Below are positions 3,214 to 41,610 of a stretch of 64,000 bases of DNA, in pieces. The notes beneath the pieces are model-generated. The model searched no databases. It was not told where the DNA came from and saw nothing but the letters and a program-made list of their open reading frames with translations. Positions within the stretch are counted from its first letter, which is position 1. Every line of letters begins with the position of its first letter. Location of the stretch: NCBI RefSeq assembly GCF_003790525.1, contig NZ_CP033635.1. One strand, 5' to 3'. The translations under genes and the position numbers were made by a program. Source of the stretch: Escherichia coli. Its GTDB lineage: Bacteria; Pseudomonadota; Gammaproteobacteria; Enterobacterales; Enterobacteriaceae.

Positions 3214-3260
3214 GAGTAAAAATGACTCGCTACCCGCAGCAGGCGAGTCATTTTTACTCG
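3214..3260. promoter_or_regulatory. ZraR-binding inverted repeat (enhancer) between divergent zraP and zraSR
   Basis: Perfect 17-nt inverted repeat GAGTAAAAATGACTCGC ... GCGAGTCATTTTTACTC seen directly in the sequence. Confidence 0.7.
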
Positions 3261-3773: not shown

Positions 3774-4475
3774 TCAGAACGTTTTCTCGTTGGGTTGCCA
3801 GCGACAGAAATCAGAGTTTGCCACCAACAGTAATTGCGAACCTTCGGGCGCTTCCAGCCATGCCACGCTGACATCAACAGAAGAGCGGCTCTGGCGGCGC
3901 TCGATATGCGCTATCGCCTGCGAATCTAAATCAGGTTTAATGGTTTGCCCTTCGCAGGTGGTCACAGTCTGCTCCATCGCATGCCAGCGCCCCTGGCGCA
4001 GCACGACTCTCCCCTGACGTAAGGCATCGCTAATCTGGCGGATCTGATCAGCACGATAACGGTATAAATCGATTTGGTCGTTAGAAAGCTGCTGCTTTTC
4101 CCCATCGGATTCACGTTGCATAAAGCTCAGATCGCCGCGATCGTCAAAACGCGCGCGAATGTTCACCGGCGGTTTGCTGTAAACATTGATATTGATGAGC
4201 GTGAGGTTATCGCCCTGCCAGCGATACTCTCGCGTTGTGGTATCGCCACTGCGCCACGGGCTAAACACGGCAAGCAGATGCACATTATCGCCGCTGTCTT
4301 TTCGCCAGATGCGTACCGCGCCCTGGTCTTCAGCAAATCCACTGGCGGTAAAGGGAGGAAGTGAAGAGTTGTGACTACAGGCAGTGAGAAACAGAGCGCC
4401 AGCCAGCATCAATGATCGACGCCAGAAAGACAAAAGGGGTGAAACCACCCCTTCGTTAAAACTGTTCACTGCCAC
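3774..4475 (-). CDS. yjaH: Conserved protein of unknown function YjaH (DUF1481 family), probable lipoprotein
   Basis: 233 aa ORF with N-terminal signal/lipobox-like sequence (LFLTAC); K-12 gene order. Confidence 0.8.
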   Translation of the reverse strand: MAVNSFNEGVVSPLLSFWRRSLMLAGALFLTACSHNSSLPPFTASGFAEDQGAVRIWRKDSGDNVHLLAVFSPWRSGDTTTREYRWQGDNLTLININVYSKPPVNIRARFDDRGDLSFMQRESDGEKQQLSNDQIDLYRYRADQIRQISDALRQGRVVLRQGRWHAMEQTVTTCEGQTIKPDLDSQAIAHIERRQSRSSVDVSVAWLEAPEGSQLLLVANSDFCRWQPNEKTF

Positions 4476-4481
4476 GCAATC

Positions 4482-4754
4482 TTACTTAACTGCGTCTTTC
4501 AGTGCCTTGCCAGAAACAAATGCCGGTACGTTAGCTGCGGCAATTTTGATTTCTTTACCGGTCTGCGGGTTGCGGCCAGTACGCTCAGCGCGGTGGTTCA
4601 CTTTGAAGGTACCGAAACCAACCAGTTGTACAGCATCGCCTTCTTTCAGAGACTCAGTAATTGCAGCCAGAGTGGACTCCAGAGCAGCTTTAGCCTGGGT
4701 TTTGGACAGTTCTGCTTTCTCTGCAATTACATCAATCAGTTGAGTCTTGTTCAT
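4482..4754 (-). CDS. hupA: DNA-binding protein HU-alpha
   Basis: 90 aa [93 protein letters not shown]. Confidence 0.97.
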
Positions 4755-4940
4755 AAGTTATCCTTACAATGTGTTTATCGCTTGCTAAGCATCGAGTGCG
4801 ACGGAAATGCCAGAATAGCACTCTCCTGCATACACGCACCGATAGCCACTTTTTTTCGCCCCCCAAATGTAGACCAGACGGGGGGCGAAAGGGAAGACTC
4901 CAGGTACGACAAATCAGGCGTTAAATCACGTTTTCTGGTC

Positions 4941-5531
4941 TTATTGCTGAAAAATTATACCAATATTGCTCTCACCCGCCTCACGCAGGTCTGCCCTAAG
5001 GCCTTTTATCAGCTCGATATCGCGTTCTTCGCACTCAGCTAAAAGTCGGAATATTTCCCACTGAATGTCCCATTCTTGCTCTACAGCTGGGTTTTCTTTG
5101 AGCTCTTCATCGCTCATTTCGCGACCAGCCTGAGTCATTTCCAGCATCGCAACGGTCGTGATGGAGGTCTTACTCACTTCCACCGCGTGTTCGAGCGTTT
5201 CGCCACTTAAACGCGAATGGACCAGTTCACTTAACGCCACGCATGCATCGATTGCCGGATAAACGCCGTACAGATCGAAATCGTCGGCTGAAGGAATCGC
5301 TTCTTCAAATTTCTCCAGTTGGCTGTCGAAATTTACTTTTGCGTCTTTGACGGTCAGCGTTTCCCAGATGAGATCGAGAATGCGGCGGTAAATTTGCCCA
5401 TCACCAAAACCGGTTTGCTGGCAGAACATGGCGTAATTGGGGTACATGCGTTCGCATAAGCAAGCCATGAAAGTGACGTGCTGCCAGCTTTCCAGGCGCT
5501 CCAGACGCAGATGAATTGGGTTTTGTAACAT
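4941..5531 (-). CDS. yjaG: Conserved protein of unknown function YjaG (DUF416)
   Basis: 196 aa ORF; position between hupA and nfi as in K-12. Confidence 0.85.
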   Translation of the reverse strand: MLQNPIHLRLERLESWQHVTFMACLCERMYPNYAMFCQQTGFGDGQIYRRILDLIWETLTVKDAKVNFDSQLEKFEEAIPSADDFDLYGVYPAIDACVALSELVHSRLSGETLEHAVEVSKTSITTVAMLEMTQAGREMSDEELKENPAVEQEWDIQWEIFRLLAECEERDIELIKGLRADLREAGESNIGIIFQQ

Positions 5532-23115: not shown

Positions 23116-23150
23116 GCGCAAAAAGGCTGGTGACTAAAAAGTCACCAGCC
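23116..23150 (-). terminator. rplL-rpoB intercistronic attenuator (partial terminator)
   Basis: Minus-strand hairpin GGCTGGTGAC-TTTTTA-GTCACCAGCC followed by TTTTTG, 40-75 nt downstream of rplL. Confidence 0.8.
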
Positions 23151-26804: not shown

Positions 26805-26836
26805 GTGCAAAAAGGGCATCAAATGATGCCCTTTTA
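26805..26836 (-). terminator. tufB rho-independent terminator
   Basis: Minus-strand AAAAGGGCATCATTTGATGCCCTTTTTGCA hairpin with U-run, 30-60 nt after the tufB stop. Confidence 0.75.
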
Positions 26837-32028: not shown

Positions 32029-32057
32029 GCAAAAAGGCCCAGTCTTCCGACTGGGCC
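32029..32057 (-). terminator. rrnB operon terminator (single hairpin; T2-like flanks with T1-like stem)
   Basis: Minus-strand AGAAGGCCCAGTCGGAAGACTGGGCCTTTTTGCGTTT immediately 3' of 5S rRNA. Confidence 0.8.
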
Positions 32058-32071
32058 TTCTGCTTAATTTG

Positions 32072-35187: not shown

Positions 35188-35380
35188 TCACAACCCGAAG
35201 ATGTTTCTTTCGATTCGTCATCGTGTTGCGAAAATTTGAGAGACTCACGAACAACTTTCGTTGTTCAGTGTTTCAATTTTCAGCTTGATCCAGATTTTTA
35301 AAGAGCAAATATCTCAAACGTCACCCGAAGATGAGTTTTGAGATATTAAGGCAGGTGACTTTCACTCACAAACCAGCAAG

Positions 35381-41571: not shown

Positions 41572-41610
41572 AACCCATGCCGGATGCATCAGCATCCGGC
41601 ATGATACCGA

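What the first reader, a model, noticed from the sequence alone, without database searches (positions are those of the whole stretch)
4857..4888. G/C homopolymer hairpin in the yjaG-hupA spacer
CGCCCCCC-(15 nt)-GGGGGGCG is preceded by T7 on the plus strand and followed by A-rich sequence. It is not a canonical terminator for either flanking minus-strand gene (on the minus-strand transcript the hairpin is followed by A7, not a U-run). It could be a structured element in the hupA upstream region or a small REP-like remnant.
Basis: seen in the sequence. Interest (0 to 1): 0.15.

Follow-up and report, generated by a model that had tools for sequence, protein, structure and literature searches.

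The report
Inverted repeat inside hupA core promoter
The G/C "hairpin" between yjaG and hupA is real, but it is not an RNA element or a repeat remnant: it is an already described inverted repeat that straddles the start site and -10 box of the E. coli hupA promoter, and was proposed in 1994 to let the HU protein shut off its own gene.

Summary
A perfect inverted repeat lies at 4857-4864 / 4880-4887 and extends to 11 bp (4854-4864 / 4880-4890) around a 15-nt centre. It is far beyond chance and occurs once per E. coli genome.

The interpretation needs correcting. The mapped hupA start site, -105 from the ATG, falls at window 4859, inside the G-run arm. The 15-nt "loop" carries the -10 hexamer TACATT. 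The C-run arm lies in the -35/-10 spacer, and the G-run is the discriminator plus +1. The hairpin is therefore not contained in hupA mRNA. It is not a terminator: there is no U-tract, the loop is 15 nt, and Term-seq shows no 3' end there. It is not REP-like either.

A promoter-overlapping inverted repeat in hupA was described by Kohno et al. 1994 as a potential cruciform. In that model HU promotes the cruciform and so occludes its own promoter. I could not read the original paper.

My comparison of 45 distinct Enterobacterales promoters adds a caveat. The promoter and the whole 5' UTR are almost invariant, but the repeat is perfect only in Escherichia and a few relatives. It carries uncompensated mismatches elsewhere and shows no significant covariation.

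Verdict: already known, low interest.

The parts
4880..4890 (-). Upstream arm of the inverted repeat (minus strand 5'-TTTCGCCCCCC-3'; 8-bp core at 4880-4887). It lies at -31..-21 relative to the hupA start site, within the -35/-10 spacer.
   Evidence: Sequence; perfect 11-bp inverted repeat; position derived from the TSS at -105.
4865..4879 (-). 15-nt centre of the repeat (minus strand GTCTGGTCTACATTT), at -20..-6. It holds the -10 hexamer.
   Evidence: Sequence. TCTGGTCTACATTT is invariant across the seven genera aligned, and nearly so (G/T at one position) out to Xenorhabdus and P0177.
4866..4871 (-). -10 hexamer TACATT (-12..-7), a 4/6 match to TATAAT with A-11 and T-7 present.
   Evidence: Placed exactly 7 nt upstream of the mapped TSS. 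Nearly invariant in the alignments; only Xenorhabdus differs, with TAAATT.
4854..4864 (-). Downstream arm (minus strand GGGGGGCGAAA; 8-bp core at 4857-4864), at -5..+6. It comprises the G-rich discriminator, the start site and the first transcribed bases.
   Evidence: Sequence; TSS.
4859..4859 (-). hupA transcription start site (hupAp, MG1655 4,200,176), the last G of the G6 run.
   Evidence: A table in PMC2760140 gives hupA p1 at -105 from both classical mapping (Kohno 1990, Claret 1996) and DMTSS. Coordinates were converted.
4890..4895 (-). Probable -35 hexamer TTCCCT (3/6 match, 18-bp spacer). The same position reads TTCACA (5/6) in Kluyvera, Dickeya, Serratia, Pantoea and others.
   Evidence: Inference from spacing. 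CTTC is invariant in alignment A3. The strict promoter scan did not call it.
4850..4856 (-). A7 tract at +4..+10 of hupA mRNA (T7 on the + strand). Its first three A's extend the repeat.
   Evidence: Sequence; conserved in the alignments.
4922..4934 (-). Conserved upstream block AAAACGTGATTTA containing a CGTGA (CRP-like) half-site, centred near -63.
   Evidence: Conservation. The CRP assignment is inference from the TGTGA consensus and from cited CRP/Fis control of hupA (Claret 1996, named; Fis activation).
4755..4859 (-). hupA 5' UTR (105 nt). It contains only the 3' half of the repeat.
   Evidence: TSS; ATG at 4754; near-invariance across Enterobacterales.
4482..4754 (-). hupA coding sequence (HU-alpha, 90 aa).
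4941..5531 (-). yjaG coding sequence (DUF416), the upstream gene on the same strand.

Best explanation
The repeat is part of the sigma-70 core promoter of hupA. Read in the hupA direction (window minus strand), the layout is: weak -35 TTCCCT; spacer carrying CGCCCCCC (-28..-21); -10 TACATT (-12..-7) in the 15-nt centre; G-rich discriminator TGGGGG; start at the last G (window 4859); then CGAAAAAAA. The two arms therefore bracket the part of the promoter that RNA polymerase must melt. Most likely this is the inverted repeat that Kohno et al. (1994) reported to overlap the hupA promoter. Their proposed mechanism is as follows. On negatively supercoiled DNA the repeat can extrude as a cruciform. 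HU constrains supercoils and binds four-way junctions about 100-fold better than duplex DNA, so it favours or stabilises the cruciform. The -10 box and start site then sit in hairpin loops and stems and are unavailable to RNA polymerase, so HU represses its own alpha-subunit gene. Shown here: the repeat, its uniqueness, and its register relative to the published start site and the -10 box. Taken from the literature: the start site, HU autoregulation and the cruciform proposal. Inferred: that extrusion happens in vivo. In addition to this role, or instead of it, the G-run and C-run probably matter as plain promoter sequence (a non-template G-rich discriminator contacting sigma region 1.2, and a GC-rich spacer). 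That would explain why both runs are conserved even where they no longer pair.
For: The repeat is verified and non-random. The hupA p1 start site is at -105 by classical mapping and by DMTSS, which corresponds to window 4859, inside the G-run arm; TACATT then falls at exactly -12..-7. It is the only inverted repeat of 7 nt or more (arms up to 40 nt apart) in the yjaG-hupA spacer. [quoted passage not shown] HU binds cruciform DNA with high affinity. hupA is reported as activated by DNA relaxation, unlike hupB, which is the direction the cruciform model predicts. The hupB upstream region lacks such a repeat. One lineage (Xenorhabdus and the P0177 locus) shows a compensatory C-G to T-A change that preserves a 6-bp repeat, GCCCTC/GAGGGC.
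Against: The structure is not conserved as a structure. Among 45 distinct Enterobacterales promoters, the repeat is a perfect 11 bp only in Escherichia and a few others. Klebsiella, Raoultella, Kluyvera, Salmonella, Cronobacter and Erwinia carry uncompensated G-to-A changes at -3/-4, and the predicted DNA hairpin energy falls from -14 to about -2 kcal/mol. Pairing is 79.9% against 79.5% in shuffles (125/500 as high), and the covariation score is reached by 41/500 shuffles. At the one position with a compensatory change, 15 sequences are unpaired. A rough energy balance gives a net cost of about +29 kcal/mol in E. coli, before any junction penalty. That needs sigma of about -0.065, beyond the unconstrained superhelicity usually assumed in vivo. 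In Klebsiella and Salmonella the cost is +42 to +43 kcal/mol, and +48 in locus L036. The 15-nt centre is long for a cruciform. I could not read the original 1994 paper, so equating 'their' repeat with this one rests on it being the only candidate.
Confidence: 0.6

Rival explanations
1. The complementarity is incidental. The G-run is conserved as a discriminator and start region, where non-template G two bases after the -10 hexamer contacts sigma region 1.2 and a GC-rich discriminator sets open-complex lifetime and growth-rate or supercoiling sensitivity. The C-run is conserved as a GC-rich spacer. No hairpin or cruciform ever forms or matters.
For: Both runs persist in species where they no longer pair. 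There is no significant covariation. The surrounding promoter and 5' UTR are equally or more strongly conserved, so arm conservation needs no structural explanation. Extrusion is thermodynamically marginal. The role of discriminator sequence is established knowledge (Travers 1980; Haugen et al. 2006), recalled rather than tested here.
Against: Published experiments reportedly link the repeat to HU-dependent repression. A perfect 11-bp repeat made of two of the window's seven runs of six or more G or C is very improbable by chance. There is one compensatory change in the Xenorhabdus/P0177 lineage. Promoter spacers are not usually conserved at sequence level.
Confidence: 0.3
2. It is an RNA hairpin acting on read-through transcripts from hemE-nfi-yjaG. 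It could be a U-tract-less terminator or pause site, a 3'-end stabiliser for yjaG mRNA, or an insulator that protects the hupA promoter from upstream transcription.
For: yjaG lies 51 nt upstream of the repeat on the same strand. The RNA fold is very stable, -36.3 kcal/mol with z = -4.96. No other terminator-like site lies between yjaG and hupA.
Against: The hairpin is followed by A7 rather than a U-tract, and its 15-nt loop falls outside the scan's terminator rules. The Term-seq lists of Adams et al. 2021 contain no 3' end at MG1655 4,2000xx-4,2001xx in any condition, although they do detect the hupA terminator and 5'-UTR ends. Mismatches in other genera weaken the RNA stem without compensation.
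Confidence: 0.06
3. It is a REP/BIME-like or other mobile-repeat remnant, or a structured 5'-UTR RNA element of hupA mRNA.
For: Only the superficial resemblance of a GC-rich palindrome lying between two genes.
Against: There is one place per genome in 5420 E. coli genomes. No Rfam family scores above noise; the best hit has E = 3.9 against a microRNA model. The start site lies inside the 3' arm, so hupA mRNA lacks the 5' arm.
Confidence: 0.02

Closest known systems
Inverted repeat overlapping the E. coli hupA promoter (Kohno et al. 1994, J Biochem 115:1113; HU autoregulation by cruciform-induced steric hindrance)
   Same: Same gene and same promoter. It is the only inverted repeat in the spacer and it overlaps the -10 box and start site as that model requires.
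   Different: Probably nothing, since this is most likely the same element. The original paper could not be read, so the exact boundaries were not compared.
HU-binding site (hbs) of the gal operon repressosome
   Same: An inverted repeat near a promoter where supercoiling-dependent, structure-specific HU binding represses transcription.
   Different: At gal, HU acts together with GalR to close a DNA loop, and the site lies at the loop apex rather than over the -10 box and start site. Here no partner repressor is known, and the repeat itself carries the core promoter.
Intrinsic (Rho-independent) terminator
   Same: A GC-rich stem in an intergenic region downstream of a gene.
   Different: There is no U-tract on either strand, the loop is 15 nt, and no 3' end is mapped there.
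GC-rich discriminator promoters under stringent or supercoiling control (rrnB P1, tyrT, fis)
   Same: A G/C-only stretch between the -10 box and +1, in a growth-phase-regulated and Fis-influenced gene.
   Different: Here the non-template strand is G-rich (TGGGGG), not GCGC with C at the sigma-1.2 position. hupA is reported as relaxation-activated, the opposite of fis and rRNA promoters. ppGpp sensitivity was not tested.
REP/BIME extragenic palindromes
   Same: A GC-rich intergenic palindrome.
   Different: It is single-copy and unrelated in sequence to REP elements.

Membership tests
Sigma-70 core promoter (hupAp) | An experimentally mapped transcription start site within the element | tested here: met
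   A literature table gives -105 from the ATG by two methods. This corresponds to window 4859, inside the arm at 4857-4864.
Sigma-70 core promoter (hupAp) | A -10 hexamer with A-11 and T-7 at the correct distance from +1 | tested here: met
   TACATT at 4866-4871 corresponds to -12..-7. It is nearly invariant across Enterobacterales; only Xenorhabdus differs.
Sigma-70 core promoter (hupAp) | A recognisable -35 hexamer 16-18 bp upstream | tested here: inconclusive
   TTCCCT matches only 3/6 with an 18-bp spacer, and the consensus scan found no promoter. Orthologous positions read TTCACA (5/6) in many genera.
Cruciform-forming promoter repeat mediating HU autoregulation (Kohno 1994) | A perfect or near-perfect inverted repeat overlapping the functional promoter domains | tested here: met
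   11-bp perfect arms span -31..-21 and -5..+6.
Cruciform-forming promoter repeat mediating HU autoregulation (Kohno 1994) | Cruciform extrusion on supercoiled DNA, promoted by HU | not testable with these tools
   Known only through a secondary summary. A rough energy estimate puts the requirement at sigma of about -0.065, which is marginal.
Cruciform-forming promoter repeat mediating HU autoregulation (Kohno 1994) | Evolutionary maintenance of arm complementarity | tested here: not met
   Pairing is 79.9% against 79.5% in shuffles, and the covariation score is reached by 41/500 shuffles. There are many uncompensated mismatches. This weakens the generality of the mechanism, not the identity of the E. 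coli element.
Intrinsic terminator | A U-tract immediately 3' of the stem on the transcribed strand | tested here: not met
   The minus strand has A7 after the stem and the plus strand has AAAGGGAAG. The terminator scan did not call it.
Intrinsic terminator | A mapped RNA 3' end just downstream of the stem | tested here: not met
   The Term-seq tables of PMC7815308 held here contain no 3' end at 4,2000xx-4,2001xx.
REP/BIME | Many dispersed copies per genome | tested here: not met
   The median is 1 place per genome across 5420 genomes.
Structured RNA element of the hupA 5' UTR | Both arms present in the hupA transcript | tested here: not met
   The start site at 4859 excludes the upstream arm and the loop. 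Rfam gives no meaningful hit.
Stringently controlled GC-discriminator promoter | A G+C-rich sequence between the -10 box and +1 | tested here: met
   TGGGGG occupies -6..-1.
Stringently controlled GC-discriminator promoter | Inhibition by ppGpp/DksA | not tested
   The relevant data set could not be retrieved under the id I tried, and papers containing hupA, ppGpp and discriminator gave no direct statement.

The most novel reading that the evidence does not exclude
The hairpin could act at the RNA level. In read-through transcripts from yjaG it would form directly over the hupA promoter region. HU is known to bind structured RNAs, so HU might bind it to couple upstream transcription or yjaG mRNA fate to HU levels. 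Alternatively, the Escherichia-specific perfection of the repeat could be a recently evolved supercoiling-sensing switch that is absent from Salmonella and Klebsiella.
Probability: 0.06. Interest if true: 0.4.

Novelty: already known. Interest (0 to 1): 0.1.

Why it matters
On its own it matters little. It re-identifies the hupA core promoter and a 30-year-old proposal for HU autoregulation through a promoter cruciform. The modest added value is comparative. The promoter and 5' UTR are among the most conserved non-coding stretches across Enterobacterales. The complementarity of the two arms, however, is perfect only in Escherichia and a few relatives, and it decays without compensation in Salmonella, Klebsiella and others. 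If the cruciform mechanism is real, it is either lineage-restricted or needs much less pairing than E. coli has. If it is not real, the G- and C-runs act as ordinary promoter sequence. That contrast is directly testable with swap mutants.

Tried and rejected
- **Rfam scan** of 4300-5300 at E up to 10: only noise.
- **Consensus promoter/terminator scan:** it found no promoter because the -35 match is too weak for its rule. The only terminator found is the hupA one at 4433-4454.
- **REP or repeat-family idea:** rejected on copy number.
- **Terminator idea:** rejected on anatomy and Term-seq data.
- **Original papers:** Kohno 1994 is not held. The ids I tried from memory for Thomason 2015 and Sanchez-Vazquez 2019 were also not held.
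- **Independent start-site check** in the Cappable-seq and Kim 2012 supplements: no entries in the held (truncated) text. The Conway 2014 supplements are not held.
- **Literature search for yjaG with hupA:** nothing.
- **ppGpp or discriminator evidence for hupA:** no direct statement found.
- **Within-species variation:** the most divergent E. coli hit differs by run lengths (C7/G7/A8) in an assembly that also has a frameshifted yjaG. I read this as assembly error, not phase variation.
- **hupB upstream region:** no analogous promoter repeat.

Full report
**What is in the sequence**

The window is E. coli. The region is 100% identical to many complete genomes. Window coordinate x corresponds to MG1655 4,205,035 - x. 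The minus strand carries hemE-nfi-yjaG-hupA-yjaH.

The reported motif is present:

| Feature | Window coordinates |
|---|---|
| T7 before the repeat | 4850-4856 |
| CGCCCCCC | 4857-4864 |
| 15-nt centre | 4865-4879 |
| GGGGGGCG | 4880-4887 |

The stated end, 4888, is one base past the 8-bp arm. The perfect complementarity is longer than reported: TTTCGCCCCCC / GGGGGGCGAAA, 11 bp, at 4854-4864 / 4880-4890.

It is not a chance feature:
- Folding z-scores are -4.96 (minus strand) and -4.20 (plus strand), with no shuffle as stable.
- C6-N(8-25)-G6 occurs once against 0.00 expected.
- Inverted repeats with 11-bp arms are expected 0.45 times per 64 kb in simulations.
- Only seven runs of six or more G or C exist in the 64 kb, and two of them form this repeat.

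**What it is**

The key datum is the hupA start site. A validation table in PMC2760140 lists hupA p1 at -105 from the start codon. The value comes both from classical mapping (Kohno 1990; Claret 1996) and from the authors' own directed 5'-end mapping.

With the ATG at 4754, this puts +1 at window 4859 (MG1655 4,200,176). That is the last G of the G6 run, inside the downstream arm. Read in the hupA direction, the element has this layout:

| Promoter element | Sequence | Position relative to +1 |
|---|---|---|
| Weak -35 | TTCCCT | -36..-31 |
| Spacer with upstream arm core | CGCCCCCC | -28..-21 |
| -10 hexamer, inside the "loop" | TACATT | -12..-7 |
| Discriminator | TGGGGG | -6..-1 |
| Start and first transcribed bases | G, then CGAAAAAAA | +1 onward |

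The -10 hexamer falls exactly 7 nt from the mapped start. This independently supports the mapping. The "hairpin" is therefore the hupA core promoter, and hupA mRNA contains only its 3' arm.

**What it is not**

- It is not an intrinsic terminator. The stem is followed by A7 on the minus strand and by AAAGGGAAG on the plus strand, and the loop is 15 nt. The terminator scan finds only the true hupA terminator at 4433-4454.
- The Term-seq tables of Adams et al. 2021 list 3' ends at 4,200,251/253, 4,200,389 and 4,200,605. They list none at 4,2000xx-4,2001xx in any condition.
- It is not REP-like. A 66-nt query finds one place per genome in 5420 genomes.
- No Rfam family matches above noise.

**Prior knowledge**

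PMC3969353 summarises Kohno et al. 1994 (J Biochem 115:1113). According to that summary, the hupA promoter overlaps an inverted repeat able to form a cruciform. HU facilitates the cruciform by raising local negative superhelicity, and the structure sterically blocks the promoter, giving autoregulation.

The repeat studied here is the only one of 7 nt or more, with arms up to 40 nt apart, in the yjaG-hupA spacer. It is therefore almost certainly that element, although the original paper is not held.

Three further points fit the model:
- HU binds cruciforms with high affinity.
- hupA is reported to be activated by DNA relaxation, whereas hupB responds to hypernegative supercoiling.
- The hupB upstream region has no comparable repeat.

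**Comparative test**

I collected 80 Enterobacteriaceae loci through YjaG. I added Dickeya, Erwinia, Pantoea, Cronobacter, Serratia, Plesiomonas, Xenorhabdus, Budvicia, a Vibrio and two further Enterobacterales.

Sequence conservation is very strong:
- The spacer length is almost fixed at 192 nt.
- The -10 region and the entire 105-nt 5' UTR are nearly invariant out to Serratia and Xenorhabdus.
- The C-run and G-run are also largely retained.

Complementarity of the arms is not retained:
- An 11-bp perfect repeat occurs only in Escherichia and a few others.
- Klebsiella, Raoultella, Kluyvera, Salmonella, Cronobacter and Erwinia carry G-to-A changes at -3 or -4 with no compensating change.
- Some Enterobacter-like genomes carry two such changes.
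- Predicted DNA hairpin energy ranges from -14 to -2 kcal/mol.

On the 45-sequence alignment, 79.9% of cells pair against 79.5% in column shuffles (125/500 as high). The covariation score is reached by 41/500 shuffles.

The one clear compensatory change is C-G to T-A, giving GCCCTC/GAGGGC. It occurs in Xenorhabdus and the P0177 locus. At that same position, 15 other sequences are unpaired.

A rough energy balance used hairpin energies, SantaLucia duplex energies and the standard superhelical free-energy expression:

| Sequence | Net extrusion cost (kcal/mol) | Sigma needed |
|---|---|---|
| E. coli | about +29, before any junction term | about -0.065 |
| Klebsiella, Salmonella, locus L036 | +42 to +48 | about -0.095 to -0.107 |

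**Conclusion on mechanism**

I commit to this reading: the element is the hupA core promoter, and its arms are the repeat of the published HU-autoregulation model. That identification is secure, at roughly 0.9.

Whether the cruciform is the operative mechanism is less secure. Published experiments and the supercoiling response favour it in E. coli. The comparative and energetic results are neutral to unfavourable. The main rival is that the two runs are conserved as plain promoter sequence (G-rich discriminator, GC-rich spacer) and that their complementarity is incidental or lineage-specific. An RNA-level role on yjaG read-through transcripts is not excluded, but no evidence supports it.

**Verdict**

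The feature is already known, and interest is low.

Noticed in passing
window 4755-4859 (minus strand), hupA 5' UTR: The 105-nt hupA leader is almost invariant from Escherichia to Serratia and Xenorhabdus, more conserved than the region upstream of the promoter. Term-seq reports 3' ends inside it at MG1655 4,200,251/253, which is window 4784/4782. The single-sequence fold is not unusually stable, z = -1.2. This suggests an uncharacterised leader function.
   Followed up: partly
L082 (Dickeya) about 1918-2040: Dickeya carries an insertion of about 120 nt in the middle of the otherwise conserved hupA leader.
   Followed up: no
window 4433-4454 (minus strand): The hupA intrinsic terminator lies inside the annotated 5' end of yjaH. 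Its Term-seq 3' end is at MG1655 4,200,605, which is window 4430. yjaH translation would therefore have to start upstream of a strong terminator.
   Followed up: no
window 3216-3257: A long perfect inverted repeat (arms of at least 15 nt, GTAAAAATGACTCGC...) lies in the zraS-zraP divergent region. It is probably a regulator binding site.
   Followed up: no
L093 (E. coli SCU-124) 61-123: This assembly shows C7/G7/A8 instead of C6/G6/A7, plus a frameshifted yjaG. This looks like homopolymer assembly error rather than genuine run-length variation.
   Followed up: partly
window 4922-4934 (minus strand): A conserved block AAAACGTGATTTA about 63 bp upstream of the hupA start contains a CRP-like CGTGA half-site. 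This is consistent with the cited CRP/Fis control of hupA.
   Followed up: no
window 23125-23150, 26810-26835, 32034-32059, 35308-35347, 41576-41603: These are other perfect inverted repeats with 11-bp arms in the window. Most have 4-6-nt loops and are probably terminators.
   Followed up: no
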